Below are positions 9,685 through 44,065 of a DNA stretch of 45,329 bases, piece by piece. The notes beneath the pieces are model-generated. The model ran no database searches and was not told the DNA's origin. It was given only the letters and a program-made list of their open reading frames with translations. The position numbers were made by a program, and so were the translations under genes. Every line of letters starts with the position of its first letter. The first letter of the stretch is position 1. This DNA comes from an uncultured Candidatus Saccharibacteria bacterium (GTDB taxonomy: Bacteria; Patescibacteriota; Minisyncoccia; UBA6257; 2-01-FULL-56-20): NCBI GenBank assembly GCA_964418085.1, contig CAYQKB010000002.1, positions 1 through 45,329 on the forward strand. The letters run 5' to 3'.

Positions 9685-9690
9685 GTTTTT

Positions 9691-10758: not shown

Positions 10759-10875
10759 GGCGGCAAAAGTGTATATAGTATAATTGAGAGGTGAAACGGA
10801 ATGGCTTCATCCCGTTAGAAGCAGATCGCGATCTATGATTTAAATAGATTTTTTTACTTTAAAAAAATTCCCACA

Positions 10876-12660
10876 ATGGATTTTCTAATGACAAATACTA
10901 AGCGATCGCGGCTTCTAACGGGATTCAGTCTCATAGACCTTGTCATAAGCCTGGGAATAATTACGTTGCTTTTCGGCGGGATATTTCTCGTATATTTCTC
11001 GATTGTTGATTCAACAAAAAATAATTCAATTCGGACAGAAGCGCTTTTTCTTTTGGAACAACAGGCGGAAATCGTGCGCAACATTCCCTACGATCAGGTG
11101 GGGACTGTGGGCGGCATTCCCTCCGGCATTATTCCGCAGTCGCAGACGATAACGGTCGGGGACATGAGTTTTTTGGTGAATACCACTGTCCGGAACATTG
11201 ATGACCCCTTCGACGGAACGCTCGGCGGCACTCCAAACGACACCGCCCCCGCGGATTACAAATTTGTAGATCTTCGGGCGCAGTGTATCCAGTGTTCGAG
11301 GCCTGTTTCGTACGAAATGACAACAACTGTCGCGCCGGCAAATCTCGAGTCAGCAAGCACGAACGGTTCTCTTTTTATAAATGTCCTTGATGCGAACGGC
11401 ATAACGGTTTCAAATGCGAATGTGCACGTTTCGAACGCGAGTGTCACTCCCGCAATTGATCTGACAGATACCACAAATGCGTCGGGATCGCTGCAGCTCG
11501 TCGGTGTTCCCACGAGTACGCAGGCCTATGCGATATCAATCACCAAGGGTGGCTATTCTTCCGATAAAACGTATGCGCCGGGCAATCCCGCAAACCCGGT
11601 GAAGCCCAACGCCACTGTCGCCGCCGGAGCGGTGACGCAAGTAACGTTTGCGATAGACCGCACAAGCCAGATAAATGTCCATACGTCGGGCAATACCTGC
11701 ATAGCGTCCGCAAACAAAAGTTTTTCGATGGTCGGCTCGAAAGTTATTGCCACAAATCCGAATGTGCTCAAGTTTTCGACGAGTTCCGTGACGGACGGAA
11801 GTGGCCTCAAAACATTTTCCGCGATTGAGTGGGATACCTATTCGCTCACGCTCTCAAGTTCCTCGACTGATCTCGCAGGCACCGTCCCGCTTACGCCGCT
11901 CGCGGTAAATCCGAGCTCGACATACGATTTTAGATTCATAACAAAGTCACTAAATCCTCTGTCGCTTCTCGTGACCGTTACGGATACGGCGACCGGCGCC
12001 GGTGTTTCAAGCGCAACGGTGGCTGTTTCGAAAAGCGGATTTTCACAAACGGCAATTACGGGAAGGAACACGTGGACCGACACCGACTGGTCTGGTGGAC
12101 AATATAGCAGTCAGGATGGGGGAATCGAAACCGATTCTCCGGCGGGCTCGCTTGCGCTGAAGTCGGTTGGTGGAGCATATACCACAGGCACCGTTTCGTG
12201 GCTTATATCTAAAACGTTTGACGTGGGAACGGACAGCGCTTCGTATTACGCGTTAAGTTGGAATCCTGATACGCAGTCGGTGCAGGCAGGGTCGAATAGT
12301 GTGCAATTTCAGATTGCATCAAATAATGATCAGGCAACATGGAATTTTATCGGTCCGGATGGAACGGCGAATACATATTATTCGGCGACCGGCACAATCG
12401 CGTACGGGGGGCACACGAATAATCGTTTCATTCGCTATAAAGTTTTCCTTCAAACGCAGGATGAAAATTACACGCCGACAATTCATACTGTAAGTTTAGA
12501 TTTTAGTTCAATATGCGTTCCGCCCGCGCAGGTATTCTTTTCGGGATTAACTTCCGGAACCTATACGATAGATATAAGCGCGCCGGGATATCAGGAATCC
12601 ACGAGTACTGTTTCCGTGGCGTCGAACTGGCAGGAAGTCCGCATACCACTTTCGCACTAA
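10876..12660 (+). CDS. large pseudopilin-like protein (prepilin-type N-terminal segment plus beta-sandwich repeats)
   Basis: 594-aa ORF. The N-terminus KRSRLLTGFSLIDLVISLGIITLLFGG resembles a class III signal with a hydrophobic helix. Repeats such as ANVHVSNASV...TNASGSLQLVGVP...GGYSS look like carboxypeptidase-regulatory-like domains. Confidence 0.65.
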   Translation: MDFLMTNTKRSRLLTGFSLIDLVISLGIITLLFGGIFLVYFSIVDSTKNNSIRTEALFLLEQQAEIVRNIPYDQVGTVGGIPSGIIPQSQTITVGDMSFLVNTTVRNIDDPFDGTLGGTPNDTAPADYKFVDLRAQCIQCSRPVSYEMTTTVAPANLESASTNGSLFINVLDANGITVSNANVHVSNASVTPAIDLTDTTNASGSLQLVGVPTSTQAYAISITKGGYSSDKTYAPGNPANPVKPNATVAAGAVTQVTFAIDRTSQINVHTSGNTCIASANKSFSMVGSKVIATNPNVLKFSTSSVTDGSGLKTFSAIEWDTYSLTLSSSSTDLAGTVPLTPLAVNPSSTYDFRFITKSLNPLSLLVTVTDTATGAGVSSATVAVSKSGFSQTAITGRNTWTDTDWSGGQYSSQDGGIETDSPAGSLALKSVGGAYTTGTVSWLISKTFDVGTDSASYYALSWNPDTQSVQAGSNSVQFQIASNNDQATWNFIGPDGTANTYYSATGTIAYGGHTNNRFIRYKVFLQTQDENYTPTIHTVSLDFSSICVPPAQVFFSGLTSGTYTIDISAPGYQESTSTVSVASNWQEVRIPLSH

Positions 12661-12661
12661 C

Positions 12662-13426
12662 ATGAACAATTCTAACTTTATCAATCCAAACGAAGAGAAT
12701 AGCCATCTTTTGAAACCGTCTCGGAGCGTGGTGACGCGACCTGCCCGAACGATTGAAGTCGTTCAGTCGGGCGGGGGGCGAGGAATTTTTTCAGCAGAAA
12801 AAATATCCTGTGTTTCAAAAGATGGCTATTCTCGAGCCGCCTTCTCTCTTCTTGAAATTGTTTTTGCACTTGCGATATTCGCGGGTATCGCAATCGTTGT
12901 CGGGAGTTTGAAAAGCAGCGTTGGCGTTCTCCAAAATATTGTTGGGCAGAAACTGCAATCCGAGCAGGATGTAGGCCAGTCATTCCAGATAATCGCGACG
13001 GACATCCGCTCCGCAGGGCAGTCGAGCATCGGCGCGTATCCCATTTCGGCGGCAAGTACCAGCTCATTCTCGTTTTATAGCGACGTTGATCGGGATGGAA
13101 TTTTTGAACTCGTAAGATATTTTTTCGTCACCAGCACACTTCAGCGCGGGATTACAAAGCCAACCGGAAACCCGCTCGTATATTCGACGAGCACCGAGAT
13201 GGTAACCACGTCAATCGCGAATATTATTATCTCGTCAAGTACACCAATTTTTTCTTACTACGACTCGGGCTATACCGGTTCGCAGGCCCCGCTGGTCGCG
13301 CCGGTAGATATATCGAAAGTGCGCGCCGTGAAAATATCCGTCTATGTCGATGTGAAGCCGACTACCGCTCCCTCCGCATTATTTTTCACTCAAACTATAA
13401 CGTTAAGAAATTTACGCGGGACATAG
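12662..13426 (+). CDS. pseudopilin-like protein with an unusually long leader
   Basis: 254-aa ORF. The pilin-like segment AAFSLLEIVFALAIFAGIAIVVG begins only at about residue 59. The first 170 nt or so contain a 22-bp perfect inverted repeat, so the true start is uncertain (in-frame GTGs at 12725 and 12728). Confidence 0.5.
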   Translation: MNNSNFINPNEENSHLLKPSRSVVTRPARTIEVVQSGGGRGIFSAEKISCVSKDGYSRAAFSLLEIVFALAIFAGIAIVVGSLKSSVGVLQNIVGQKLQSEQDVGQSFQIIATDIRSAGQSSIGAYPISAASTSSFSFYSDVDRDGIFELVRYFFVTSTLQRGITKPTGNPLVYSTSTEMVTTSIANIIISSSTPIFSYYDSGYTGSQAPLVAPVDISKVRAVKISVYVDVKPTTAPSALFFTQTITLRNLRGT

Positions 13427-13451
13427 AAATATAACGTATGACAAACAACAA

Positions 13452-14924
13452 ATGACAAGTAAAAAAGTTACAAGGTACAAGCTACAAGTTGCAAGTTCGC
13501 GTCGCGGTCAATTCTCTTTGGAGGTGCTGATTTTTTCTTCGGTCGTAGTCACTTTAATTAGCGGCTTTGTGTTCCTTTCGCTTTCGTTCACCCAGCTCTC
13601 GGTTCGCGGGATTAACAAGCAAGAGGCGTTTTCCATAGCGGAGTCGGGGATAGAGTACTATCGGTGGCATCTCGCGCACGCGCCATTGGACTTTCAGGAT
13701 GGGACTGGGCATGCCGGGCCGTATGTTCATCAGTATTTCAACAGGGACGGTACGGTCGTCGGAAGTTTTACGCTGAATATCACGCCTGTTCCGGGATCAA
13801 CGGTTGTTACAATCGAGAGCACCGGCAATGTCATTGCCGATCCGTCCGTTCAAAAAATTATCAAAGTTCAACTTGGGAAGTCGTCATTTGTGAAATATTC
13901 TGTGGCGATTGGCGAAGATGTCAGATTCGGCAGTGGCACAGAAGTATTTGGTCCTATTTTTTCGAATGGCGGTATTCACTTCGATGGGCTCGCGCACAAT
14001 AGTGTGCAAAGCGCTCAGGCAACGTATGACGATCCGGACCATGGTGGTCAGGCGGAGTTCGGTGTGCATACTCATGTAAGCCCGGTTGATCCATTTCCTC
14101 CTGGGGCGGTACCGAGTAGGCCGGATGTGTTTATCGCCGGGCGGAGTTTTCCGGTTCCCGCTTTGGATTTCACGCAGATCACGCAGACGCTTTCTTCCCT
14201 CAAATCCCTTGCACAGGCAAGCGGCACATATTTTGCATCAAGCTCTGCGTTTGGCTACGATCTCGTGCTCGATCCTTCGGGGGCGTACTCAATGTATAAA
14301 GTGACAGCGCTCAAACCTCCTCCGAACGGGTGCACAAATACAAGTAATCAGGATGGATGGGGAACGTGGAGTATTCAAAGCGAGACGCTTAAGGCGACCG
14401 GCACAATCCCGTCGAACGGCGTTATTTTTGCTGAAGACGATTTGTGGATTCGCGGACAGGTAACTGGGAAGCATGTCACGATCGGAGCAGGGCGTTTTCC
14501 GGATAATCCCGCGACACGGGCAAGTATAACCGTGAATAGCAGTACGCTGTATACAAATTATAACGGGAGCGACACCATCGGGATGGTCGCCCAGAATAAT
14601 TTCAATGTTGGTTTGTATAGTGAAAACATTCTCCGGATTGATGGCGCGCTAGTTGCGCAAAACGGACGAATAGGAAGATATTATTATTCACCGCCAAACG
14701 ACAACTCGAATTCAAATAAGTGCGGCAATACCGTGGTTCGCCAAAAGATCACTCTCTACGGTTCGCTTTTCAGTAGTCTGCGATATGGATTTGGATACAC
14801 CGACAGTACGGGCTACCAGGAGCGCGATATTATCTACGACTCCAATCTTCTTTACGCGCCGCCGCCGAGTTTCCCTCTCACGGCCGACCAGTATTCGATA
14901 ATCTCGTGGGACGAGGTACAATAA
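13452..14924 (+). CDS. pilus-associated protein with a pilin-like N-terminal hydrophobic segment
   Basis: 490-aa ORF within the pilus operon: RGQFSLEVLIFSSVVVTLISGFVFL. No further family recognised. Confidence 0.5.
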   Translation: MTSKKVTRYKLQVASSRRGQFSLEVLIFSSVVVTLISGFVFLSLSFTQLSVRGINKQEAFSIAESGIEYYRWHLAHAPLDFQDGTGHAGPYVHQYFNRDGTVVGSFTLNITPVPGSTVVTIESTGNVIADPSVQKIIKVQLGKSSFVKYSVAIGEDVRFGSGTEVFGPIFSNGGIHFDGLAHNSVQSAQATYDDPDHGGQAEFGVHTHVSPVDPFPPGAVPSRPDVFIAGRSFPVPALDFTQITQTLSSLKSLAQASGTYFASSSAFGYDLVLDPSGAYSMYKVTALKPPPNGCTNTSNQDGWGTWSIQSETLKATGTIPSNGVIFAEDDLWIRGQVTGKHVTIGAGRFPDNPATRASITVNSSTLYTNYNGSDTIGMVAQNNFNVGLYSENILRIDGALVAQNGRIGRYYYSPPNDNSNSNKCGNTVVRQKITLYGSLFSSLRYGFGYTDSTGYQERDIIYDSNLLYAPPPSFPLTADQYSIISWDEVQ

Positions 14925-18243: not shown

Positions 18244-18310
18244 TGTCATTCCCGCGAAAGCGGGAATCCAGAATAAATCCTGGATCTTCGGGTCAAGCCC
18301 GAGGATGACA
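18244..18310. repeat. MITE-like palindromic element, copy 1 (GTCATTCCCGCG...GGAATCC family)
   Basis: TGTCATTCCCGCGAAAGCGGGAATCCAGAATAAATCCTGGATCTTCGGGTCAAGCCCGAGGATGACA. Ends are TGTCAT/ATGACA, with two internal hairpins. Confidence 0.8.
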
Positions 18311-21747: not shown

Positions 21748-22056
21748 ATGAATTTCTCAATCATCGAAACCGGTGCGAAACAATATAAGGTTTCCGTCGG
21801 AGACAAGATAAAAATAGAAAAAATCGAGGCGAATGTCGGCGATAATTTTGTTTTCGATAAAGTGCTGCTTCGCGCGGAAGGGGAGAGTGTCGTAGTGGGC
21901 GAGCCGTATATTTCCGGTGCCAAGGTTGAGGGAAAAGTTCTTGGACAGGAACGGGCAAAAAAAGTAATTATCTTCAAATATCACTCAAAGACCCGTCAAC
22001 GGAAAAAACGCGGTCATCGGCAGCATTTCACGGAAGTAGAGGTGATGAAGGTGTAA
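21748..22056 (+). CDS. rplU: 50S ribosomal protein L21
   Basis: MNFSIIETGAKQYKVSVGDKIKIEKI...FKYHSKTRQRKKRGHRQHFTEV. Confidence 0.9.
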   Translation: MNFSIIETGAKQYKVSVGDKIKIEKIEANVGDNFVFDKVLLRAEGESVVVGEPYISGAKVEGKVLGQERAKKVIIFKYHSKTRQRKKRGHRQHFTEVEVMKV

Positions 22057-22068
22057 GTCATACATCCG

Positions 22069-22138
22069 TGTCATTCCCGCGCAAGCGGGAATCCAGGTTA
22101 TTTTTATTTTCTGGATCCCCGCCTGCGCGAGGATGACA
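22069..22138. repeat. MITE-like palindromic element, copy 2
   Basis: TGTCATTCCCGCGCAAGCGGGAATCCAGGTTATTTTTATTTTCTGGATCCCCGCCTGCGCGAGGATGACA. Confidence 0.8.
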
Positions 22139-22161
22139 GAGTTGAGTACCTGGTTTAGAAT
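22133..22161 (+). promoter_or_regulatory. sigma-70-like promoter, -35 ATGACA / 17 nt / -10 TAGAAT
   Basis: The -35 hexamer is the terminal ATGACA of MITE copy 2. TAGAAT at 22156-22161 lies 12 nt upstream of the ATG at 22174, with an AAAGGA SD between them. Confidence 0.4.
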
Positions 22162-22173
22162 GAAAGGACAGAT

Positions 22174-23835
22174 ATGAATTCGGAAAATCGAACTTGTCAA
22201 AATTGTAAAAAAGAATTTGTTATCGAGTCGGAAGATTTTGATTTTTATAAGAAAATTTCAGTTCCAGCGCCAACATGCTGTTCCGAATGTCGTCTGAAGC
22301 GACGAATGATGTTTAGGAATTTCAAAACGTTATATAAACGGACATCAAGCCTCTCAGGCAAGCCAATCATTTCAATTTATCCGCCCGAGTCCCCATATAT
22401 AGTCTATACCCACGACGAATGGTGGGGCGATGATTGGGATTCGAAATCGTACGGAAAAGATTTTGATTTTTCACGTCCGTTTTTTGAACAGTTTAAAGAA
22501 TTGCTGCTTGCGGTGCCGCGGTTTAATTTAATGAACACCCAGAGCCAGAATTGCGAGTATTCAAACATGGTGTTGCGGAGTAAAAATTGCTATCTCGTTT
22601 TCGGTTGTGTGGATACGGAAGACTGTGCATATGGTCACATCGTGTGGGAATGCAAAGACTGCATTGATAATCTTTATCTGCATCATTCCGAGCTCTGCTA
22701 TGAATGCGTTGATTGTTTGTGGTCCTATAAACTTTCCTACTCGCAGGAATGTGAAAGCTGTACGGAGAGTGTCGGTCTCTACGATTGTCGAAGTTGCATG
22801 AACTGCATTGGGTGCGTAGGTTTAAAACAAAAGTCTTATTATATTTTTAATGAAAATGTCGGCAAGGCCGGATATGAACAATTTTTGAAAGATCACCCAC
22901 TCGGCGATCCAAAAACTATTTCGTATATTCTTGAGAGACGAGAAGAACTTCGAAAAAAAGTCCCGCAACGCCATTTTTTTGGCTCGCACAACACCAACGT
23001 TTCCGGAAATCATATTTACAACGGAAAAAATGTCCATTACTCATTTGACTTGAAAGAAGGCGAAGACTCCAAATATATTTTTACCGCAAGCAAGATGAAA
23101 GATTCTTATGATGCCACGTTCAATGGCGGCGGAGTGGAGCTGGGATATGAGTTGCTCGCGTGCGTGGGTCGCGGCATTCAATTTTGCCAAAACGTCATGA
23201 ATTCCAGCGATGCGTATTATTCTGACAATTGTTACGGTTCGCATAACATTTTCGGCTGTGCGTGGATGAAGAATGCCAATTACTGCATTCTAAACAAGCA
23301 GTACTCAAGGGAAGAGTATGAAGTGCTCGTGCCAAAAATTATTGAGCATATGAAAAAAAATGGAGAGTGGGGAGAATTTTTTCCTATTTCCCTTTCACCA
23401 TTTGGATATAATGAATCAATCATCAATGAATATTTCCCACTAAGCCGCGAAGAAGCGGAAAAGCAGGGTTATAGGTGGGCCGATGATCCACCAGTTACAA
23501 CAGGGCAAGAAACGCTAAAGCATGATGCACTCCCAAAAAATCCGAAAGAATATTCGGATGATCTCGTAAAGGAAGTTCTTGCATGCGGCAGGTGCGGAAG
23601 AAATTATCGGTTTATACCAAAAGAGATACAATTCCATAAGCAGATGGAGTTTTCGCTTCCGAAAGAATGTTTTAATTGTCGGCATGCTCGGAGGATGAGT
23701 GTGCGAAACCCGCGCCGACTGTGGGATGGCGTGTGCGCAAACTGCGGCGCGGCATTCAAGACTTCGTATCCGCCGGACAAGCAAAAAGAGCTCAAAATCT
23801 ATTGCGAAAAATGTTATTTGAATGAAATGGGTTGA
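22174..23835 (+). CDS. uncharacterised cysteine-rich protein with N- and C-terminal zinc-ribbon modules (paralog 1)
   Basis: 553-aa ORF with about 33 Cys by my count. It is collinear with the ORFs at 24226 and 33271. No family recognised. Confidence 0.8.
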   Translation: MNSENRTCQNCKKEFVIESEDFDFYKKISVPAPTCCSECRLKRRMMFRNFKTLYKRTSSLSGKPIISIYPPESPYIVYTHDEWWGDDWDSKSYGKDFDFSRPFFEQFKELLLAVPRFNLMNTQSQNCEYSNMVLRSKNCYLVFGCVDTEDCAYGHIVWECKDCIDNLYLHHSELCYECVDCLWSYKLSYSQECESCTESVGLYDCRSCMNCIGCVGLKQKSYYIFNENVGKAGYEQFLKDHPLGDPKTISYILERREELRKKVPQRHFFGSHNTNVSGNHIYNGKNVHYSFDLKEGEDSKYIFTASKMKDSYDATFNGGGVELGYELLACVGRGIQFCQNVMNSSDAYYSDNCYGSHNIFGCAWMKNANYCILNKQYSREEYEVLVPKIIEHMKKNGEWGEFFPISLSPFGYNESIINEYFPLSREEAEKQGYRWADDPPVTTGQETLKHDALPKNPKEYSDDLVKEVLACGRCGRNYRFIPKEIQFHKQMEFSLPKECFNCRHARRMSVRNPRRLWDGVCANCGAAFKTSYPPDKQKELKIYCEKCYLNEMG

Positions 23836-23856
23836 AATTATTATTTGAAAATATAA

Positions 23857-24222
23857 ATGTATAAAACAAAAAAAGACAAATTGCCAAAGAAGCCGCCGAT
23901 TTCGATTGATTTCGATGGGGTGGTTCATGCGTATAGCAAAGGATTTCATGATGGCAGCATTTACGACGAACCAATCCCTGGTGCACAAAAAGCAATGCGG
24001 GAACTCAGGAAAAAACATCATCTGTATATATATTCGAGCCGCGGGAAAACTAAGGCGGGTTGTGCGGCAATGGAAGAATATTTAAAGAGATGGAAAATTC
24101 CGTTTGATGAAGTTGTCAGCCATAAACCGCCGGCAAGGTTTTATATTGATGATCGAGCCATCCGATTCGAAACATGGCGGCAAGTTCTTCGAGATGTCCG
24201 TTTTTTTGAAAAGAAAAAGTAA
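23857..24222 (+). CDS. small HAD-superfamily phosphatase (nucleotidase / polynucleotide-phosphatase-like)
   Basis: 121-aa ORF. Motif I ISIDFDGVVH, motif II YIYSSR, and distal K...YIDDR. Confidence 0.65.
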   Translation: MYKTKKDKLPKKPPISIDFDGVVHAYSKGFHDGSIYDEPIPGAQKAMRELRKKHHLYIYSSRGKTKAGCAAMEEYLKRWKIPFDEVVSHKPPARFYIDDRAIRFETWRQVLRDVRFFEKKK

Positions 24223-24225
24223 TCT

Positions 24226-26007
24226 ATGAATACAGAAAAGAAAATCTGCCAGAACTGTAAAAAAGAATTTGTAATTGAACCGGAAGATTTCGATTTTTAT
24301 AAAAAAATTTCTGTCCCTCCGCCGACCTGGTGCCCGGAGTGTAGGCTTCAGCGCCGACTAGCGTGGCGAAATACATGGCATCTCTTTAGGAAAAAAGACG
24401 CCCAAACCGGCAAGGAGATATTTTCTATATTTTCGGAAGAAAGCCCCGTAAAAATATACGAGCGAGATTTTTGGGCTTCGGATAAATGGGATCCAATGGA
24501 ATACGGTCGCGAGTACGGCTGGGATCAACCCTTCTTTGAGCAGTTCAAAGAATTGTTGCATGCCGTTCCATTGCCCGCGCATTCGGTTTTAAATCTTTCA
24601 AATTGCGAATACTGCACGAACGCGAACGAGCTCAAAAATTGTTATTTCGTCCGGGCTTCAACAGCTTCAGAGGATTCGCTATATCTCATTTGGGATCATG
24701 GTTCGAAACGATCGCTCGACAGTCATATGACTAATAGGTGCGAATTGGGCTATGGAAATCTAAATACCGTACGATGCTACAAGACATTTTTCTCTGTAGA
24801 TTGTGAGGATTGTCAGTCAGTTGTTCTCTCTAAAGACTGTATTGCCTGCAACGATTGTTTTGGTTGTATTGGACTTCGCAATAAGTCGTATCACATTTTC
24901 AACCAGCCATATTCAAAAGAAGAATATATAAAAACGCTTCAGGGACTTGATATCGGCTCTGCAAAAAATTTGGACGCACTCGAAGCGCGCGCGTACGAAC
25001 ACTGGAAAAAATATCCACAGAAGTTCATACATGGGAGGCAAAATCTTGGAGTAACAGGGGATTACATCTATGAATCGAAAAATGCTCGGCAATGTTTTCG
25101 CATCCGTGGCGGAGAAGATGTAAAATTTTGCCAAAACCTCCTCGAAGCATCTTCGAAGGATTGCTACGACTATTCAAACTGGGGGCAGGGTGCGGAGTTG
25201 ATATACGAATGTCTGGTTGGGGGAGTTGGCATTTACAACATTCGATGTAGTTGGCAGACATACGAAAACGTGAAAAATATCGAATACTCCGCTTTTTGCC
25301 ACAACTCTTCGGATTTATTCGGATGCGTCGGTCTCAAAAATAAACAATACTGCATATTTAACAAACAATATTCGAAAGAAGATTTTCAAAGGCTGCGCAC
25401 AAAGATTATCGAACATATGAACACGATGCCGTATCGGGATGCGAAGGGACGAATATACACGTACGGCGAATTTTTTCCGTCAGAGCTTTCGCCGTTTCCG
25501 TATCAGGCAACCGAGGCACATGAATTTTTCCCGATGATGGAAGAGGAAGCGATTAAAAAAGGTTTCGTCTGGTATTCTCCTAAAAAACAAAACTATTCCA
25601 TTACACTTGAGAATCAGGACATCCCGGACCATATTAAAGATGTAAAAGATGATATTTTAACTGCAGTGATTGAATGTAAGCACAAAGGTGAATGTCGGGA
25701 AGAATGCACGGGCGCTTTCCGAATCGTTGGAGAGGAGCTAAAATTTTTGAAACAATTCAATCTCGCGCTCCCGCGTCTCTGTCCTAATTGTAGGCATTAT
25801 AGCCGCCTTGCATTCAGAAATCCGCCGAGATTTTCTCGTCGTGCGTGCCAATGTGTAGGAATAGATTCCAGTAATAATATTTACAAAAATACAATCTCCC
25901 ATTTCCACGGCGCAGAAAAATGCCCTAACGAATTTGAGACATCATATTCGCCAGATCGCCCAGAGATTGTATATTGCGAACAGTGCTACACTTCTGAAGT
26001 GTCCTGA
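24226..26007 (+). CDS. uncharacterised cysteine-rich protein with N- and C-terminal zinc-ribbon modules (paralog 2)
   Basis: 593-aa ORF starting 3 nt after the HAD stop. It shares MN.E..IC.NCKKEFVIE.EDFDFYKKISVP.PT.C.ECRL.RR, FFEQFKELL, GC.GL.NK.Y.IFN and TSYSPD...YCEQCY with its paralogs. Confidence 0.8.
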   Translation: MNTEKKICQNCKKEFVIEPEDFDFYKKISVPPPTWCPECRLQRRLAWRNTWHLFRKKDAQTGKEIFSIFSEESPVKIYERDFWASDKWDPMEYGREYGWDQPFFEQFKELLHAVPLPAHSVLNLSNCEYCTNANELKNCYFVRASTASEDSLYLIWDHGSKRSLDSHMTNRCELGYGNLNTVRCYKTFFSVDCEDCQSVVLSKDCIACNDCFGCIGLRNKSYHIFNQPYSKEEYIKTLQGLDIGSAKNLDALEARAYEHWKKYPQKFIHGRQNLGVTGDYIYESKNARQCFRIRGGEDVKFCQNLLEASSKDCYDYSNWGQGAELIYECLVGGVGIYNIRCSWQTYENVKNIEYSAFCHNSSDLFGCVGLKNKQYCIFNKQYSKEDFQRLRTKIIEHMNTMPYRDAKGRIYTYGEFFPSELSPFPYQATEAHEFFPMMEEEAIKKGFVWYSPKKQNYSITLENQDIPDHIKDVKDDILTAVIECKHKGECREECTGAFRIVGEELKFLKQFNLALPRLCPNCRHYSRLAFRNPPRFSRRACQCVGIDSSNNIYKNTISHFHGAEKCPNEFETSYSPDRPEIVYCEQCYTSEVS

Positions 26008-28270: not shown

Positions 28271-30616
28271 ATGGCACTTTTTTATTTTTTAATCATCCTC
28301 GCGTTTTCGACCATTGCCGGACTCTTGATTTATTTTAGTGGGCGCAAGGCAATACGTCGTAGAAAAGAAGATCTTTCGAAGGCCGTACTGCTTCGCATAC
28401 AGGTTCCACGGCACGAAACCGGAAAACTGGATTTTAAAAGCGAAGCAAAAAAATTTGAAGCACTTCTGAAGCGTTTGGCTTCATTCAATCGCGTCTGTTC
28501 GCTTGAGGTATTTGTGGAGCACATCGGCGGGGATATTCACTTCCTTCTATGGGTGCCAAGGGCATTTATCGGCGGTGTTCGCGAGGAAGTATATCGTTTA
28601 TGGCATGGGGCAAAAGTCAGCGTGGTTCATTCCGCTCCGGTGATTTTCGGAAGCCGCAGCGTTTCAATTTGCGGTCATATTGAGCAGAAGAAGGATCACG
28701 CGCTTTCCGTAAAGACGCATAAAGTTTTGGAAGCCGATCCATTTGCTTCGATTTTAAAAACACTGTCGCGCATCGAAAAGATCGGTGAAGGGGCGGGCAT
28801 GCAGCTATTGCTCCGTCCCGTTTCCGACCGTCACAAAAGAAGTATTGCTCAGTCTCTTACGTCAATGATGCGGGGAGAGTTGGGCGAGATAGTCGCAAGA
28901 AATAAATTGATCTCTAAGGAGGGTATTAATATCCCGAGTGTGGGCGTAGAGATTGAGGAAAAAAAGAAGCGCGAAAAGATTAAGAAAGATGTTTTCAACT
29001 TTGCATGGAATAAGATTTCCCAGCCGCTTTTTGTCGCAAATGTCCGGATATGTGTTTCTGCAGGCGCGAAATTTCGGGCGGAAGAAATTTTGGATGAGAT
29101 TGTGTCAAGCTTTAGCCATTTCGACGATCCGCATCACAATGAATTCAGATTTGTGAAAGAGAGAAATTCAGAAAAGAGTATCGGCGATTTTATCGCGCGC
29201 CGCTGGAACGATGCCGAGACGATTGTTCTTTCGGGCGAAGAAATAGCGAGCTTCTGCCACTTTGCGTCGCCTCCGGAGGGCGGCATGAGTCTGTCCTGGC
29301 TCGGGGTGCGTCAAATTCCTTCTTCAGGCGCTTCATCGAGAGGAGCTCACATTGGTGAGAATGAATTTGAAGGAGCATCGAGACAGATTTTTTTGAGAGA
29401 AGAAGATAAGCAGAAGCATGTATTTATTGCAGGAGTTGATGGCACAGGAAAGTCCACGCTTATTGGGACTATGATGATGGACGACATTAATCACGGCAGG
29501 GGCGCGGCGCTGATTGATCCAGTGGGGCATCTTGCGGAGCGATTACTTGGCAAGATTCCGCCAATGCGCAGGAAAGATGTTATCTATCTCGATGTGGCCG
29601 ATAACGCCCGTCCACCGGGAATTACTCTCTTCGATGAAGGGATTACGCATGAGGAAAAAGTTTTTATGGCCGAAGAGCTATGCGAGATTACAAAGAAATT
29701 TTTCACTCTTGAGACGAGGGGCCCGCTCTTCGATGCATATATTCGAAACAGTTTTTTGCTTCTCGCGGAAAATGTGGCCCATGGTGCGAATTTCTTTGAC
29801 CTCCCAAGAATTCTTCTTGAAAAAAGATATCGGGCACTTCTTCTCTCGCGGGCGAAAGATGTCGGGCGTATCCGGTTTTGGAACGATGAAGCGAGAAGCG
29901 AATCTGGCGAGACTGCACTTGCAGGCATTGCGCCATATATCCTCTCGCGGTTTGAAAAATTTGTTGCGTCCGATTTTCTGCGATATGTGTTCGCACACCC
30001 GGGTGGGGCAGTGAATATCAGGCGCGCCGTCTCGGAAAATAAAATTATTTTGGTGAATCTTCGCGAGAAAGTTCTGGGTCGCCACGAGAGCGAGCTTCTG
30101 GGAATGGTTTTAGCTGGTAAAATATATGCCGCCGCATTTTCCCGATCTGCTGCAGTCGAGACAAAGAAAAACTATAATCTGTATCTCGATGATTTCGGGG
30201 GTTGTATCACAAATTCCTTTTCTTCAATCATATCCGGGGATCAGAATGTTTCTTTGAATATTGTTTTGGCAACAAAATCAATTGGAGAACTTCCCGAAAA
30301 AGTGAGGAATAGTATTTTTAAGAGCCATGTTTCAAGGATAATATTTCGAGTGACTGGACAAGACGCGGAATACTGCGCTTCCGAGCTCGGGTCGGCTGCG
30401 ACTCGGCACGATTTAATAAATATCCCTAATTTTGAAGCATGTGTGAAAGTGTCCGCTCACGGAGGACATTCCAAGCCCTATACTATAAGGATGAAAGGGG
30501 ACTCAGGTATGGGAAGTACGGAGGTTGCTCATGCACTTAAAGAACATTCGCGCGTGGCATATGGAAGAGATGTTCGCGAATTGGAAAAAGAAATCCGCCG
30601 GAAGACGGCAGAATAG
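28271..30616 (+). CDS. membrane-anchored P-loop ATPase, VirD4/TraD (coupling-protein)-like
   Basis: 781-aa ORF with an N-terminal TM segment (FYFLIILAFSTIAGLLIYF) followed by an unassigned domain of about 340 aa. Then HVFIAGVDGTGKSTLIGTMM (Walker A), ALIDPVGHL, DVIYLDVAD, and a Walker-B-like NLYLDDFG. Confidence 0.6.
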   Translation: MALFYFLIILAFSTIAGLLIYFSGRKAIRRRKEDLSKAVLLRIQVPRHETGKLDFKSEAKKFEALLKRLASFNRVCSLEVFVEHIGGDIHFLLWVPRAFIGGVREEVYRLWHGAKVSVVHSAPVIFGSRSVSICGHIEQKKDHALSVKTHKVLEADPFASILKTLSRIEKIGEGAGMQLLLRPVSDRHKRSIAQSLTSMMRGELGEIVARNKLISKEGINIPSVGVEIEEKKKREKIKKDVFNFAWNKISQPLFVANVRICVSAGAKFRAEEILDEIVSSFSHFDDPHHNEFRFVKERNSEKSIGDFIARRWNDAETIVLSGEEIASFCHFASPPEGGMSLSWLGVRQIPSSGASSRGAHIGENEFEGASRQIFLREEDKQKHVFIAGVDGTGKSTLIGTMMMDDINHGRGAALIDPVGHLAERLLGKIPPMRRKDVIYLDVADNARPPGITLFDEGITHEEKVFMAEELCEITKKFFTLETRGPLFDAYIRNSFLLLAENVAHGANFFDLPRILLEKRYRALLLSRAKDVGRIRFWNDEARSESGETALAGIAPYILSRFEKFVASDFLRYVFAHPGGAVNIRRAVSENKIILVNLREKVLGRHESELLGMVLAGKIYAAAFSRSAAVETKKNYNLYLDDFGGCITNSFSSIISGDQNVSLNIVLATKSIGELPEKVRNSIFKSHVSRIIFRVTGQDAEYCASELGSAATRHDLINIPNFEACVKVSAHGGHSKPYTIRMKGDSGMGSTEVAHALKEHSRVAYGRDVRELEKEIRRKTAE

Positions 30617-33270: not shown

Positions 33271-35044
33271 ATGAATTCCGAAAATAAAATCTGTGAAAAT
33301 TGTAAAGCCCAGTTCATTATCGAGCCGGAAGACTTTGATTTCTACAAGAAGATTTCAGTTCCTCCGCCAACCTGGTGCCCGGAGTGTCGGCTTCAGCGAA
33401 GATTGGCGTGGCGGAATGAAAGAGGGCTGTCAAAGAGAAAATGCAATGCTCCCGGCCATTCGGAGGAAATCATTTCAGTTTATTCTGATCCAAAGCTGTG
33501 CGTGTATGACCCAAAATATTGGTGGAGCGATGCGTGGGACGGAACGCAATTCGGCGAAGAGATTAATTTTTCAAAACCGTTTTTTGCGCAATTCAGAGAG
33601 CTTTTAGAACGGGCGCCACTTCTATCCCTTGTGGATAGTAAATCAACCAATACAAGCTACTGCAATCTCACGGTCGAGCATAAAAATTGTTATCTGGTAA
33701 CCGCCGGATGGAACAACGAAGACTCGTATTACAGCAATCGAATTTCTTTTTGTAAAGATACGCTCGATTCTTATGTGTGCCATAAAACTGAATATGGGTA
33801 TGAAAATATAAACTGCAAAGATTCATATCAGCTTTTTTTCAGCCGCAATTCCGAGGGGTGTAATAACTCCTATTTTTTATATGATTGTCGAGGTTGCTCG
33901 AATTGTGTTTGTTCGACGGGGCTCCGAAGCAAGCAATATTATATTTTTAACCAGCCATATACCAAGGAAGAATATTTCAAAAAGTTGAAGGAGTTGGAAA
34001 TAGAAAGTGCCGCCGGCCTTGAAAAACTAAAGGCGAAGCTCGAGGAAATGTATCTGCAGTCGATACATAAATACGCTCAAATTATTAAGTCTTCCAATGT
34101 GGTGGGGGACAATATTTCGGAGGCCAAAAATTGCTATTGGTGTTTTGATATTGCGGGCGATGCCGAAAATTCAAAATACTGCAATTGGGCCACGTATGGC
34201 CTCAGGGATTGTTACGACTCCGGGCCGGGAGCGGGCGGGAAGTCAGAGCTTACCTATGAAGGAATAAGTATCGGCGTCAATAATGCGCGATGCAGTTTCG
34301 GCACCGCAATTTGGTATTCGCACGATGTCCATTATAGCTATAACTGCCATTCGTCGGAATATCTTTTTGGCTGTGTTTCATTGCGCAATAAAAAGTATTG
34401 CATCTTGAACAAGCAATATACGAAAGACGAATATGAAACATTAGTCCCAAAGATTATCGAACATATGAACAAAAATGCCTTATAGCGATAAACAACGAAG
34501 GATATATGGACATGGAGAACTTACTCCGATTGAGCTGTCGCCATTTCAATATAACGAAACTATTGCTCAAGAATTTTTCCCATTGACCCCAGAGAGAGCG
34601 CGCGCGGAAAATTATCCCTGGTACGAGCAGGAGAAACGAGCATATACAATTACCAAAAAGTCGGAAGAACTTCCGGATAGCATTATGGAAGTAAGCGAAG
34701 AAATCACGAATGAAATTATCGAATGCGCTCACAAAGGAAAATGTAATGATCAATGTGCAACGGCGTTTAAAATAATTCCACAAGAAATTCTTTTTTATAA
34801 AAAGTTTAATCTTCCCTTGCCCCGGCTATGCCCTAACTGTCGTCATGGAATGCGATTAAAATTGAAGAATCCAATGAAGCTCTGGCACCGTGAGTGCATG
34901 TGTGATTACGGAATCCATTCCAATTCCGTAAAGCACGCCCATCATCCGTCGGGCCGCTGTCCGAATGAATTTGAAACGTCCTATTCTCCGGATCGGAAAG
35001 AGATTGTATACTGCGAAGAGTGCTATCAGGCCGAAGTGGCATAA
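33271..35044 (+). pseudogene. cysteine-rich zinc-ribbon protein paralog 3, interrupted by a 1-nt frameshift in an A5 run
   Basis: ORFs 33271-34485 and 34475-35044 together align end to end with paralog 2 (IIEHMNK|MPYSDKQRRIYGHGEL versus IIEHMNTMPYRDAKGRIYTYGEF). Removing one A at 34471-34475 restores a single ORF of about 590 aa. Confidence 0.75.
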
Positions 35045-35058
35045 TCTTAAAAACTAAA

Positions 35059-35931
35059 ATGAAATCTAAAAAAATTCTAGTCATATACCACGGCAATTGC
35101 CCGGACGGATTCGCCGGCGCATGGGCGGCATATAAAAAACTTGGAAACAGAGCCGAGTATGTTGGCGTTGAGGATAGGCGAGTACTGCCCAAAAACGCGA
35201 AAGGGAAAGAAATTTATCTTATTGATTTGGTCTATCCAAAGGAGTTATTAAAAAAACTCATCAAAGAAAATAAGCGCGTAGTGGCGATTGATCACCATAT
35301 CACCGCCAAGGATTCGATGATGCTGGTAAGCGAGGGATTGTTTGCACTTGACCATTCGGGCGCAGTGCTCTCCTGGCTCTATTTCCATCCGCAGAAAAAA
35401 GTTCCACAATTTTTAAGGCACATCGAGGACTTTGACTTGTGGAAGTTTAAACTTGCTGGAACAAAAGAACTGCGGGCGTTTTTGGATTCAAAAACATGGA
35501 GTTTTAAACTTTGCGACGAACTTGCCGGGAATATGGAATCGGTTTCAAAAACAAATGTATATCTAGAAAAAGGAAAAGCGATTCTCGAATATCAGGAAAA
35601 AGTAGTGGAGGATCTCGCTCTAAGGAATTCGGAGTACGTTTCTTTTGCTGGATATAAAACGCTTGTCTTGAATTCGCCCGTGCTTCAGTCGCAGATTGGG
35701 AACGCGCTCACGAAAAAGAAGCCGCCTATCGGTATTGTATGGAACGAACATGATGGAAGAATTTTTGTCTCGCTCCGATCGAATGGAGCTGTGGACGTGT
35801 CTAAAATCGCCCAAAAATTTGGAGGTGGCGGCCATAAAGCCGCTTCAGGATTTTCCTTTGGAACCGGTAAAAAGTTTCCGTGGAAAAGGAATCCTCTGTC
35901 ATCCTTGCGAAAGCGGGGATCCAAAATATAA
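35059..35931 (+). CDS. DHH/DHHA1 family phosphoesterase
   Basis: MKSKKILVIYHGNCPDGFAGAWAA, DHH motif VVAIDHHIT, and DHHA1 motif FGGGGHKAASGF. The start at 35059 is preferred over the ORF-track 35020. Confidence 0.8.
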   Translation: MKSKKILVIYHGNCPDGFAGAWAAYKKLGNRAEYVGVEDRRVLPKNAKGKEIYLIDLVYPKELLKKLIKENKRVVAIDHHITAKDSMMLVSEGLFALDHSGAVLSWLYFHPQKKVPQFLRHIEDFDLWKFKLAGTKELRAFLDSKTWSFKLCDELAGNMESVSKTNVYLEKGKAILEYQEKVVEDLALRNSEYVSFAGYKTLVLNSPVLQSQIGNALTKKKPPIGIVWNEHDGRIFVSLRSNGAVDVSKIAQKFGGGGHKAASGFSFGTGKKFPWKRNPLSSLRKRGSKI

Positions 35932-35965
35932 AACCGCCTGGATTCCCGCCTGCGCGGGAATGACA
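35897..35965. repeat. MITE-like palindromic element, copy 4
   Basis: TGTCATCCTTGCGAAAGCGGGGATCCAAAATATAAAACCGCCTGGATTCCCGCCTGCGCGGGAATGACA. It overlaps the last 11 codons and the stop of the DHH gene. Confidence 0.8.
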
Positions 35966-35975
35966 AAATTAATTT

Positions 35976-43984: not shown

Positions 43985-44065
43985 TGTCATTCCCGCGCAG
44001 GCGGGAATCCAGAGCAAAGAAAAATCTGGATCGCCACGGACTTGAAATAAGCTCTCGCGATGACA
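43985..44065. repeat. MITE-like palindromic element, copy 5
   Basis: TGTCATTCCCGCGCAGGCGGGAATCCAGAGCAAAGAAAAATCTGGATCGCCACGGACTTGAAATAAGCTCTCGCGATGACA. Confidence 0.75.

What the first reader, a model, noticed from the sequence alone, without database searches (positions are those of the whole stretch)
22069..26007. Tight operon: two paralogous Cys-rich zinc-ribbon proteins of about 550-590 aa bracket a 121-aa HAD phosphatase
Seen in sequence:
- ORFs 22174-23835 and 24226-26007 are collinear paralogs.
- They share the N-terminus MN.E...C.NCKKEFVIE.EDFDFYKKISVP.PT.C.ECRL.RR, then FFEQFKELL, GC[VI]GL.xK.Y.IFN, IIEHM, SPF.Y, and a C-terminal TSY.PD....YCE.CY.
- Only a 121-aa ORF with the HAD motif DFDGV separates them, with gaps of 21 and 3 nt. 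The three genes are therefore almost certainly one transcript from the ATGACA-17-TAGAAT promoter.
- The large proteins have no signal peptide or TM segment. Paralog 1 has about 33 Cys in 553 aa by my count.

I cannot place the large proteins in any characterised family from memory.

Inference: the arginine-rich zinc-ribbon ends and the phosphatase partner point to a nucleic-acid or nucleotide-directed function. Three copies within 13 kb is a large investment for a streamlined genome. This is my best candidate for an undescribed system.
Basis: partly seen in the sequence, partly recalled or inferred. Interest (0 to 1): 0.8.

Follow-up and report, generated by a model that had tools for sequence, protein, structure and literature searches.

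The report
Uncharacterised zinc-finger protein family of CPR bacteria
The two large cysteine-rich genes are real tandem copies of a very large, completely uncharacterised protein family found only in ultra-small CPR/Patescibacteria bacteria; the small phosphatase between them is a one-off insertion, and the family's real conserved neighbour is an orphan secretion-type (VirD4-like) ATPase.

Summary
ORFs 22174-23835 (553 aa) and 24226-26007 (593 aa) are full-length paralogs (39% identity, E 1e-133) with 33 Cys each. A 121-aa HAD-like ORF lies between them with gaps of 21 and 3 nt. A third copy, frameshifted, lies at 33271-35044.

The proposed three-gene system with a phosphatase partner is not supported. 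A HAD-family profile hits no ORF in 80 related loci. The HAD gene is absent between the orthologous pair in the closest relatives, and its own homologs sit in unrelated contexts.

The large proteins belong to a huge family restricted to Patescibacteria (>7,000 clusters at 90% identity, 2,056 at 50%). The core has no Pfam, NCBIfam, PADLOC or PDB match.

Architecture: treble-clef zinc ribbon, two duplicated Cys-ladder repeat modules, a second ribbon, and a CxxC-x17-19-CxxC finger.

Members occur in tandem arrays of 1-7 genes. 22 of 42 full-length loci also carry a VirD4/TraG-type ATPase, same-strand with a median gap of 45 nt. The window's own copy is at 28271-30616. One ATPase subtype carries the same terminal finger.

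Best guess, at low confidence: zinc-finger adaptor or cargo-binding partners of these orphan ATPases. Function is unproven.

The parts
22069..22138 (.). 70-nt palindromic repeat element in the rplU-P1 intergenic region.
   Evidence: RNA fold -49.5 kcal/mol, z -4.7. The core 25-mer occurs 4 times in the window against 0 expected.
22133..22161 (+). Promoter-like match ATGACA-17-TAGAAT
   Evidence: 10 of 12 consensus match. Such matches are only weakly enriched in the region: 16 found against 9.8 +/- 2.9.
22174..23835 (+). P1, a 553-aa divergent paralog of the Cys-rich zinc-finger/solenoid family
   Evidence: At most 43% identical to any sampled member. AF2 pLDDT 75. No PDB fold match.
23857..24222 (+). 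121-aa capless mini-HAD phosphatase, a lineage-specific insertion
   Evidence: All four HAD motifs by sequence. phrog_1238 E 1e-22 and weak matches to 1xpj, TIGR01689 and Hydrolase_6. Not linked to the family elsewhere.
24226..26007 (+). P2, a 593-aa member of the widely conserved 'P2-type' paralog lineage
   Evidence: Orthologs 54-77% identical across Paceibacteria lineages. This cluster is present in 57 loci. AF2 pLDDT 77, pTM 0.77.
24247..24342 (+). P2 zinc ribbon 1 (C8, C11, C36, C39) followed by a basic helix CRxQRRxxxRN
   Evidence: These Cys are 97-99% conserved in 160 sequences. zf_Tbcl hits in 18 of 38 members. Homologous to ribbon 2 by hhalign at 98.1%.
24580..24945 (+). P2 Cys-ladder repeat module 1 (residues 119-240), 12-residue period, ending in C205-x2-C208-x2-C211-x2-C214
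   Evidence: Autocorrelation peaks at lags 12, 24 and 36. 12-residue register. Cys conservation 75-97%.
25018..25425 (+). P2 repeat module 2 (residues 265-400), a duplicate of module 1
   Evidence: hhalign 99.3%, E 2e-20. AF2 short-strand solenoid, mostly pLDDT 86-98 across residues 321-400. Weak beta-helix-like Foldseek hits.
25675..25791 (+). P2 zinc ribbon 2 (C484, C494, C519, C522) with a basic helix
   Evidence: Cys 94-98% conserved. Homologous to ribbon 1.
25846..25986 (+). P2 terminal zinc finger (C541, C566, C584, C587), of zf_Tbcl_2 / CxxC-x17-CxxC type
   Evidence: Cys 98-99% conserved. PF23477 and TIGR04272 hits in P1, sub-threshold. Zinc binding by this domain type was shown by ICP-MS in M. 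mazei proteins (PMC12704099).
28271..30616 (+). 781-aa VirD4/TraG-type (coupling-protein family) P-loop ATPase with an N-terminal TM segment and a DUF8128-type region. This is the conserved genomic partner of the family.
   Evidence: Walker A GVDGTGKST. Homologs carry PF10412, PF12696, PF02534, PF01935 and PF26449. phrog_5156 E 8e-49. Homologs occur in 30 of 81 loci.
33271..35044 (+). P3, the third family copy ('P3-type' lineage), split by a 1-nt indel in an A5 run near 34470-34476
   Evidence: The repaired 590-aa product aligns full length and is 47% identical to P2.
35020..35931 (+). DHHA1-domain protein directly downstream of P3. This neighbour is shared only with close relatives.
   Evidence: PF02272 E 2e-9. 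Same gene order in Ryanbacteria L090. Found in 0 of 80 broader loci.

Best explanation
Shown. P1 and P2, with the frameshifted P3 about 7 kb downstream, are tandem paralogs of a very large, uncharacterised protein family of about 580 aa. It was found only in Patescibacteria of the Paceibacteria/Parcubacteria lineages. Each protein has five parts: (i) an N-terminal Cys4 treble-clef-type zinc ribbon followed by an invariant Arg-rich helix; (ii) two duplicated repeat modules built on a roughly 12-residue Cys-ladder repeat, the first ending in a conserved CxxCxxCxxC cluster; (iii) a conserved acidic linker; (iv) a second copy of the ribbon plus Arg helix; and (v) a terminal CxxC-x17-19-CxxC zinc finger. 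The mini-HAD gene between P1 and P2 is a lineage-specific insertion of an unrelated, probably active, small phosphatase. It is probably co-transcribed but is not a conserved partner. The conserved context is tandem arrays of family members plus VirD4/TraG-type P-loop ATPases. These appear to belong to the population of 'orphan' coupling-protein homologs recently counted in Patescibacteria. One ATPase subtype carries the same terminal zinc finger.

Inferred. The family proteins are multi-zinc adaptor or cargo-recognition subunits. They bind a polyanionic ligand, most likely nucleic acid, through the Arg-rich fingers, and they work with, or present cargo to, the hexameric translocase-type ATPase. 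The repeat core serves as a rigid scaffold or oligomerisation surface. Different paralogs may form hetero-oligomers or supply different specificities.
For: Paralogy and architecture.

Family size and range: more than 7,196 hits, all named 'hypothetical protein' from Patescibacteria. 2,056 clusters at 50% identity with E<=1e-30, nearly all 550-600 aa. At least 588 matches in species-representative genomes, with all but one of the 80 listed (L026) carrying Patescibacteria-type or unassigned names.

No characterised homolog.

HAD not linked.

Tandem arrays: 196 family ORFs in 81 loci, 54 loci with two or more, 75 adjacent pairs with a median gap of 10 nt.

ATPase linkage: 43 ATPase ORFs in 30 of 81 loci, and in 22 of 42 loci of 12 kb or more. 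22 are directly adjacent to a family gene, all same-strand, median gap 45 nt. That is about 49 per Mb, against about 2 per genome in the published census of 5,713 in 2,918 genomes, of which only 148 are near virB4 (PMC12102498).

Shared domain: zf_Tbcl_2 at 39-49 bits (cutoff 27) in the ATPases directly upstream of arrays in L067, L002 and L051, and in P0391.

Other points: ribbons 1 and 2 have pI 9.3 with invariant R40/R44/R48 and R523, and near-invariant (>=90%) R527/R531. P2-type orthologs are 54-77% identical across lineages, which points to strong purifying selection.
Against: No experiment or structure ties the family to nucleic acid or to the ATPase. The ATPase is absent from about half of the full-length loci, and two of three ATPase homologs examined from the ATPase side had no family gene nearby. 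In the window itself the ATPase is 2.2 kb from P2, with two intervening genes, one on the opposite strand. Part of the linkage could be inherited synteny among related lineages, for example the dnaK-...-dnaJ arrangement. The zinc-finger hits in P1 and P2 themselves are below the Pfam and NCBIfam cutoffs. The AF2 models are poor in exactly the Cys-rich repeat regions (pLDDT 22-38 across residues 121-190 in P2, 54-69 in P1). The CxxCxxCxxC cluster could bind Fe-S and point to a redox role instead.
Confidence: 0.35

Rival explanations
1. One reading: P1-HAD-P2 is a dedicated three-gene system in which the zinc-ribbon proteins and the phosphatase act together on nucleotides or nucleic acid.
For: The genes are tightly spaced on one strand (gaps of 21 and 3 nt). 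The HAD ORF has all four catalytic motifs. In this window and in Ryanbacteria, a DHHA1 phosphoesterase and an RNase H-like gene follow copy 3.
Against: HAD is absent from all 80 related loci by tblastn and by a family HMM. It is absent between the orthologous pair in the closest relatives. HAD homologs are never next to a family member. DHHA1 was found in 0 of 80 loci.
Confidence: 0.04
2. The family proteins are cargo, not adaptors. They would be exported or injected substrates, or secreted Cys-rich structural subunits, recruited by the VirD4-like ATPases to the patescibacterial type IV secretion apparatus for interaction with the host.
For: Multi-copy paralog arrays lie next to coupling-protein-type ATPases. 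The proteins have no signal peptide. The C-terminal region is Arg-rich with a conserved extreme C-terminus, which resembles T4SS signals (established knowledge). Patescibacterial T4SS lack relaxases and are thought to serve non-conjugative roles (PMC12102498). A 12-residue Cys-ladder solenoid would be stabilised by disulfides outside the cell.
Against: Cross-lineage conservation is very high (54-77%), which is unusual for effectors. There are three tightly folded Cys4 zinc sites. The ATPases directly flanking the arrays (the ~490-aa and ~700-aa types) have no N-terminal hydrophobic segment in their first 40 residues and look soluble; TM prediction was not run. These ATPases are not near virB4. 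The family is absent from phage and mobile-element collections.
Confidence: 0.13
3. A metal or redox protein. The Cys-rich core would bind Fe-S clusters or many Zn ions and act as a redox sensor, metal buffer or zinc-dependent holdase linked to the DnaK/DnaJ chaperone system.
For: 33 Cys per protein. The C205-x2-C208-x2-C211-x2-C214 cluster is conserved. In one lineage the arrays sit between dnaK and dnaJ. A CutA1 divalent-ion-tolerance gene lies next to the ATPase in 5 loci. The best, though non-significant, structural look-alikes for P1 include PerR and the Hsp33 redox switch.
Against: Most core Cys are only 30-80% conserved and vary between paralogs. There is no ferredoxin or radical-SAM type motif or family hit. 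The dnaK/dnaJ context is confined to related lineages. The fold hits have E>0.6.
Confidence: 0.12
4. A conserved cytoplasmic structural or housekeeping protein with no functional tie to the ATPase. The proximity would reflect inherited gene order and the multi-copy nature of both families.
For: About half of the full-length loci lack the ATPase. The window's ATPase is not adjacent. Family genes also sit next to rplU, pgk, argS and other housekeeping genes.
Against: Adjacency is direct, same-strand and short-gap in several lineages whose ATPase N-termini are clearly different. The two families share a zf_Tbcl_2 domain. The enrichment is roughly 10-20-fold over the expected density.
Confidence: 0.2

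Closest known systems
Pfam zf_Tbcl (PF13451) and zf_Tbcl_2 (PF23477) / NCBIfam TIGR04272 'CxxC-x17-CxxC' zinc fingers
   Same: The terminal modules have the same Cys4 spacing and give sub-threshold to threshold hits: zf_Tbcl in 18 of 38 members, zf_Tbcl_2 in P1 at 21 bits. The CxxC-x17-CxxC domain type binds zinc experimentally in M. mazei small proteins (PMC12704099).
   Different: These models cover only about 40-aa end modules. They say nothing about the roughly 400-aa core and have no assigned function. The hits in P1 and P2 are below the curated cutoffs.
VirD4/TraG/TrwB type IV coupling proteins and their cognate substrates or adaptors
   Same: The conserved neighbour is a coupling-protein-family ATPase with TrwB_AAD_bind, TraG-D_C, T4SS-DNA_transf and DUF87 domains. 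Coupling-protein genes classically sit next to the gene for what they recruit, usually the relaxase.
   Different: No relaxase-like (HUH or 3-His) motif was seen by inspection in the family. The flanking ATPases appear to lack TM segments, from inspection of N-termini only. They are not near virB4. No characterised coupling protein is known to pair with proteins of this architecture.
Left-handed beta-helix (hexapeptide-repeat) proteins such as gamma-carbonic anhydrase, LpxA and GlmU
   Same: These are the best Foldseek hits for the P2 model, so the core resembles a short-strand solenoid.
   Different: TM-scores are at most 0.24 and rmsd is 8-17 A. There is no Hexapep Pfam hit. The repeat period is about 12, not 18. 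The P1 model gives no such hit.
12-residue Cys-containing beta-solenoids such as the Tenebrio molitor antifreeze protein (recalled from memory, not tested)
   Same: A 12-residue repeat with a register-conserved Cys ladder.
   Different: There is one Cys per coil, not two. The protein is cytoplasmic and zinc-finger-flanked. No sequence or fold match was obtained.
Mini-HAD phosphatases (TIGR01689 EcbF/BcbF, PDB 1xpj, phrog_1238), for the 121-aa ORF only
   Same: About 120 aa, capless, all four HAD motifs present. phrog_1238 E 1e-22 and 1xpj E 0.004.
   Different: The substrate is unknown. TIGR01689 scores 21 bits against a 162-bit cutoff, so the ORF is not an equivalog.

Membership tests
zf_Tbcl (PF13451) treble-clef zinc finger | Pfam HMM score above the 24-bit gathering cutoff | tested here: inconclusive
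   P1 scores 18.8 bits and P2 17.1 bits. 18 of 38 family members hit at E<=0.1, best 8e-6.
zf_Tbcl (PF13451) treble-clef zinc finger | Four conserved zinc-ligand Cys (CxxC ... CxxC) | tested here: met
   C8, C11, C36 and C39 are 97-99% conserved. The duplicate site C484, C494, C519 and C522 is 94-98% conserved.
zf_Tbcl_2 (PF23477) / TIGR04272 CxxC-x17-CxxC | HMM score above cutoff (27 or 36 bits) | tested here: inconclusive
   P1 scores 21 bits (PF23477) and 18.2 bits (TIGR04272). P2 gives no hit because of an insertion between the first ligands. The neighbouring ATPases score 39-49 bits.
zf_Tbcl_2 (PF23477) / TIGR04272 CxxC-x17-CxxC | CxxC - about 17 residues - CxxC spacing | tested here: met
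   P1 has C521-x2-C524-x19-C544-x2-C547. The ligand columns are 98-99% conserved.
HAD superfamily phosphatase (121-aa ORF) | Motifs I-IV (DxD, S/T, K, DD) | tested here: met
   D18-F-D20-G-V, S60/S61, K90 and D98-D99 read directly from the translation. phrog_1238 E 1e-22.
HAD superfamily phosphatase (121-aa ORF) | Pfam or NCBIfam score above cutoff | tested here: not met
   Hydrolase_6 scores 17.8 against 27 bits. TIGR01689 scores 21 against 162 bits.
Conserved operon partnership of HAD with the Cys-rich family | Recurrence of the linkage in other genomes | tested here: not met
   0 of 80 loci by tblastn and by a HAD-family HMM. Absent in the closest relatives. HAD homologs sit in other contexts.
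Hexapeptide-repeat left-handed beta-helix enzymes | Hexapeptide motif, 18-residue coil, significant fold match | tested here: not met
   No Hexapep hit. Period is about 12. Foldseek TM is at most 0.24.
Type IV coupling protein (VirD4/TraG), for ORF 28271-30616 | P-loop NTPase with TrwB/TraG domains | tested here: met
   Walker A GVDGTGKST. The window protein is sub-threshold (TrwB_AAD_bind 17.7 against 20.5 bits). Homologs at 30-36% identity carry PF10412, PF12696, PF02534 and PF01935.
Type IV coupling protein (VirD4/TraG), for ORF 28271-30616 | Encoded with a T4SS (virB4) or a relaxase | tested here: not met
   Among the roughly 25 window ORFs scanned against Pfam (about 20 were not scanned), none matched VirB4 or a relaxase. 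The literature reports only 148 of 5,713 patescibacterial homologs near virB4.
Known anti-phage defence systems | Match to a PADLOC model | tested here: not met
   0 hits at E<=1 for P1, HAD and P2.
Fe-S cluster protein | Bound Fe-S cluster | not testable with these tools
   A conserved CxxCxxCxxC cluster exists, but the metal identity needs spectroscopy or ICP-MS.

The most novel reading that the evidence does not exclude
The Cys-rich zinc-finger/solenoid arrays, together with the orphan VirD4-like ATPases that flank them, form a previously unrecognised machine found widely in Paceibacteria. One ATPase subtype carries the same zinc finger. This could be the missing cargo-recognition or processing module for the relaxase-less patescibacterial T4SS, or an independent nucleic-acid or protein translocation motor. 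Either would explain what the thousands of 'exapted' coupling-protein homologs in CPR genomes do.
Probability: 0.3. Interest if true: 0.78.

Novelty: categorically new. Interest (0 to 1): 0.58.

Why it matters
CPR/Patescibacteria make up a large share of bacterial diversity, live as tiny symbionts, and have streamlined genomes in which about half the genes are unknown. A family that is kept in 2-7 copies per locus, is conserved at 54-77% identity across lineages, and has no relative in any curated family or structure library is likely to do something central to their biology.

Its link to VirD4-like ATPases bears on a recently raised open question: why Patescibacteria carry about two coupling-protein homologs per genome that are not next to a secretion system (PMC12102498). 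That link turns the question into a concrete pair of proteins that can be expressed and tested together.

For annotation, the result also shows that the HAD gene should not be read as part of the system.

Tried and rejected
- **ORF 10876-12660 as the third copy.** Rejected. It is a pilin-like protein with a CarboxypepD_reg domain. The real third copy is at 33271-35044.
- **HAD and DHHA1 as conserved partners.** Rejected.
- **Hexapeptide left-handed beta-helix enzyme.** Rejected: weak fold hits only, no Hexapep match, 12-residue period.
- **Defence system.** No PADLOC hit.
- **Phage or mobile origin of the family.** No hit in 50,697 phage records and one fragment in IMG/VR. The weak phrog_15341 hit (E 5e-4) is to a family of unknown function.
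- **Novel relaxase.** No conserved His triad or HUH motif. Only H167 is at least 90% conserved. This was by inspection only.
- **Structured RNA upstream.** Only a spurious mir-392 hit on the palindrome.
- **PDB searches with isolated finger regions.** Non-significant look-alikes only, such as bL32 and GATA, at E>0.2.
- **Literature searches.** Searches for PF13451, zf_Tbcl, TIGR04272, PF23477, DUF8128, and Paceibacteria with zinc ribbon found no description of the family.
- **Med15_N KIX hits (13 of 38 members).** Judged a spurious helix similarity.

Full report
**1. Observation.**
The ORF list confirms three same-strand genes: P1 at 22174-23835 (553 aa), a 121-aa ORF at 23857-24222, and P2 at 24226-26007 (593 aa). 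The gaps between them are 21 and 3 nt. P1 and P2 align over their whole length at 39% identity, E 1e-133, and each has 33 Cys.

tblastn of P1 and P2 against the window finds a third copy at 33271-35044 (42-49% identity). It is split into two ORFs. The break is a single extra base in an A5 run near 34470-34476. Removing one A restores a 590-aa protein that aligns end to end.

The ATGACA-17-TAGAAT match is at 22133-22161. Promoter-like matches are barely enriched in this region, with 16 found against 9.8 +/- 2.9 in shuffles. The -35 hexamer also lies in the right arm of a 70-nt palindromic repeat element at 22069-22138. That element folds at -49.5 kcal/mol with z -4.7, and its core 25-mer occurs four times in intergenic positions in the window.

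**2. Known families.**
Pfam and NCBIfam give only sub-threshold hits to small terminal zinc fingers: zf_Tbcl at the N-terminus, and zf_Tbcl_2 / TIGR04272 at the C-terminus of P1. Scanning 38 family members one by one adds nothing for the core. PADLOC gives nothing. PHROGs gives only a weak hit to a family of unknown function.

A family profile finds no PDB sequence at E<=10. The AF2 models reach pLDDT 77 / pTM 0.77 for P2 and pLDDT 75 / pTM 0.75 for P1. For P2 they give only weak, geometrically poor matches to left-handed beta-helix proteins, with TM at most 0.24 and rmsd 8-17 A. For P1 they give nothing, best E 0.66. The viral structure library returns only generic hexapeptide-repeat and zinc-ribbon hits.

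Literature searches for the domain accessions and for related terms found no description of the family.

**3. Size and range of the family.**
The 90%-identity protein collection holds more than 7,196 hits. Every listed hit that carries a name is called 'hypothetical protein' and comes from Liptonbacteria, Nomurabacteria, Paceibacterota or 'Patescibacteria group'. The exhaustive 50%-identity library holds 4,748 clusters at E<=1e-3 and 2,056 at E<=1e-30. Nearly all of the best 150 are 550-600 aa and match end to end.

A scan of one genome per species found at least 588 confirmed matches. The 80 kept are Patescibacteria-type or taxonomically unassigned MAGs, apart from one 7.4-kb contig binned as Gammaproteobacteria. 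The family is absent from 50,697 phage records, and IMG/VR has only one fragment. It is therefore a chromosomal family specific to CPR bacteria. P2-type orthologs keep 54-77% identity across named candidate phyla, which implies strong constraint.

**4. Architecture.**
Profile-profile comparison shows two internal duplications. Residues 119-240 match 265-400 (99.3%, E 2e-20). Zinc ribbon 1 matches zinc ribbon 2 (98.1%, E 9e-14).

In 160 full-length sequences, three Cys4 sites are 94-99% conserved: C8/11/36/39, C484/494/519/522 and C541/566/584/587. A C205-x2-C208-x2-C211-x2-C214 cluster is 75-97% conserved, and C367 and C376 are 92-94% conserved. The remaining core Cys are variable.

Module 1 has a 12-residue period. 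In P1 it reads as nine rows, most ending in ...[SE][KE][ND]C, which forms a Cys ladder. Ribbons 1 and 2 are basic (pI 9.3) and are followed by invariant Arg residues: R40, R44 and R48 after ribbon 1, and R523 after ribbon 2, with R527 and R531 near-invariant at >=90%.

The CxxC-x17-CxxC domain type has been shown by ICP-MS to bind zinc in two Methanosarcina mazei small proteins (PMC12704099).

**5. The phosphatase.**
The 121-aa ORF has all four HAD motifs. It belongs to a small family of stand-alone mini-HADs: phrog_1238 at E 1e-22, 1xpj at E 0.004, and 59 homologs in the large collection. It is not a partner of the large proteins, on three lines of evidence:

- tblastn finds it in 0 of 80 related loci, and an HMM built from its 59 homologs hits only the window's own ORF among 851 ORFs.
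- In the closest relatives, whose P2 orthologs are 69-77% identical, the flanking family genes are directly adjacent with no HAD between them. L082 has a 4-nt overlap and keeps the upstream PBP2-GalT-membrane-L21 synteny. L081 has a 40-nt gap. L083 has a different context.
- HAD homologs lie between yebC and ruvC, after a rubrerythrin gene, or after an R-M system, and never beside a family member.

The DHHA1 gene after copy 3 is shared only with a Ryanbacteria relative and was found in 0 of 80 loci.

**6. What is conserved around the family.**
Clustering all ORFs of the 80 loci plus the window gives only two recurrent clusters.

The first is the family itself: 196 ORFs in 81 loci, 1-7 per locus, with 54 loci holding two or more. 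There are 75 adjacent pairs with a median gap of 10 nt.

The second is a P-loop ATPase: 43 ORFs in 30 loci. The window's member is the 781-aa ORF at 28271-30616, which lies between P2 and P3. In loci of at least 12 kb, 22 of 42 contain it. 22 ATPase genes are directly adjacent to a family gene, all on the same strand, with a median gap of 45 nt.

Homologs of this ATPase carry TrwB_AAD_bind, TraG-D_C, T4SS-DNA_transf, DUF87 and DUF8128 domains. Sources that name them call them VirD4/TraG-family. A 2025 census found 5,713 VirD4-type homologs in 2,918 Patescibacteria genomes. Only 148 were near virB4, relaxases were almost absent, and the authors suggested exaptation (PMC12102498). The density near family genes is about 49 per Mb. 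That is roughly 10-20 times what about two copies per genome would give, assuming genomes of about 1 Mb, which is my own estimate.

Three ATPase subtypes occur:

- About 490 aa, apparently soluble.
- About 700-770 aa, apparently soluble, with a confident zf_Tbcl_2 finger (39-49 bits against a 27-bit cutoff) followed by a disordered tail.
- About 780-930 aa, with an N-terminal TM segment and DUF8128. This is the window's type.

A recurrent order is DnaK, zinc-finger ATPase, family array, short ATPase, DnaJ (L002, L014, L024, L067). CutA1 lies beside the ATPase in 5 loci.

From the ATPase side, one of three contexts examined had family genes nearby: L090, which mirrors the window's Ddl-ATPase-PyrRedox-PGK-family-family-DHHA1-RNase H order. 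The other two did not.

**7. Paralog history.**
Distance clustering shows two ancient lineages that are both widely retained: P2-type in 57 loci and P3-type in 38. There are also many divergent extras. Adjacent genes are more often of different types (54 pairs) than the same type (26 pairs). P1 is a singleton, at most 43% identical to anything sampled, including the upstream genes of the closest relatives.

**8. Interpretation.**
Shown: this is a huge, constrained, CPR-specific family of multi-zinc proteins with a duplicated Cys-ladder repeat core. It occurs in tandem arrays. It is linked to orphan VirD4-like ATPases both by position and by a shared zinc-finger domain. The HAD gene is a local insertion.

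Inferred, at low confidence: the proteins act as adaptors or cargo-recognition partners that bind a polyanion, probably nucleic acid, through the Arg-rich fingers and work with the translocase-type ATPase.

The rivals cannot be excluded in silico: exported cargo, a metal or redox protein, or no functional tie to the ATPase at all. The experiments that would separate them are listed under next steps.

**9. Verdict.**
The 'system with a phosphatase partner' reading is not supported. The claim that the large proteins are an undescribed family is supported, and is strengthened by a different and better-supported partner.

Interest is moderate to high. The finding is a real unknown of broad distribution with a testable link to a recent open question, but it has no demonstrated function.

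Noticed in passing
window 33271-35044 (break near 34470-34476): The third family copy is split into two ORFs by a 1-nt indel in an A5 run. Removing one A restores a 590-aa full-length protein. This is either an assembly or homopolymer error or a young pseudogene.
   Followed up: partly
window 22069-22138; also 18245-18269, 35940-35964 (minus strand), 43986-44010: A REP/MITE-like palindromic repeat with core GTCATTCCCGCGCAAGCGGGAATCC occurs 4 times in intergenic positions against 0 expected. The copy upstream of P1 forms a 70-nt hairpin (-49.5 kcal/mol, z -4.7). It overlaps the putative -35 hexamer, produces the spurious minus-strand ORF 21985-22200, and gives a spurious Rfam mir-392 hit.
   Followed up: partly
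window 28271-30616: The 781-aa TM plus DUF8128-type VirD4-like ATPase matches phrog_5156 (unknown function) over its full length at E 8e-49. It also shows about 20% identity to proteins of Bacillus phages (0105phi7-2 'DNA helicase or translocase', phage G gp156, and the SPP1 gene 32 region).
   Followed up: partly
L002, L014, L024, L067 (also L073, L078, L056, L028, L074): In one group of Paceibacteria the cassette of zinc-finger ATPase, family array and short ATPase sits between dnaK and dnaJ on the same strand. The short ATPase is followed directly by dnaJ in 9 loci.
   Followed up: partly
L019, L022, L030, L037, L051: A CutA1 divalent-ion-tolerance gene (PF03091, E 7e-22) lies directly beside the VirD4-like ATPase, next to family arrays.
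   Followed up: no
window 35020-36578; L090 18217-19895: A DHHA1-domain gene overlaps the end of copy 3 by 25 nt and is followed by a gene with an RNase H1 N-terminal (Cauli_VI) domain. The same order occurs in a Ryanbacteria contig, where the RNase H-like protein is 84% identical.
   Followed up: partly
window 8443-14924: A type IV pilus-like cluster: T2SSE ATPase (E 8e-126), T2SSF platform protein, a 594-aa pilin-like protein with an N-terminal hydrophobic segment and a CarboxypepD_reg domain, and two ORFs with no family match.
   Followed up: no
L026 (CAYJLM010000079.1): A 7.4-kb contig with two family genes is assigned to an 'uncultured Gammaproteobacteria' MAG. This is probably a binning error and not occurrence outside Patescibacteria.
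   Followed up: no
family residues about 54-90 (P2 numbering); window 24385-24495: The region after zinc ribbon 1 weakly resembles the zf_Tbcl_2 finger of the ATPases (blastp E 1e-3 to 1e-2). Position 58 is Cys in 66% of members, but not in P1 or P2. This suggests a degenerate second finger, so that the N- and C-terminal finger pairs would be duplicates.
   Followed up: partly
window 21748-22173: The rplU (L21) gene is followed by the repeat element and P1. The same L21-then-family order, with one inverted gene between, is seen in relative L082.
   Followed up: no
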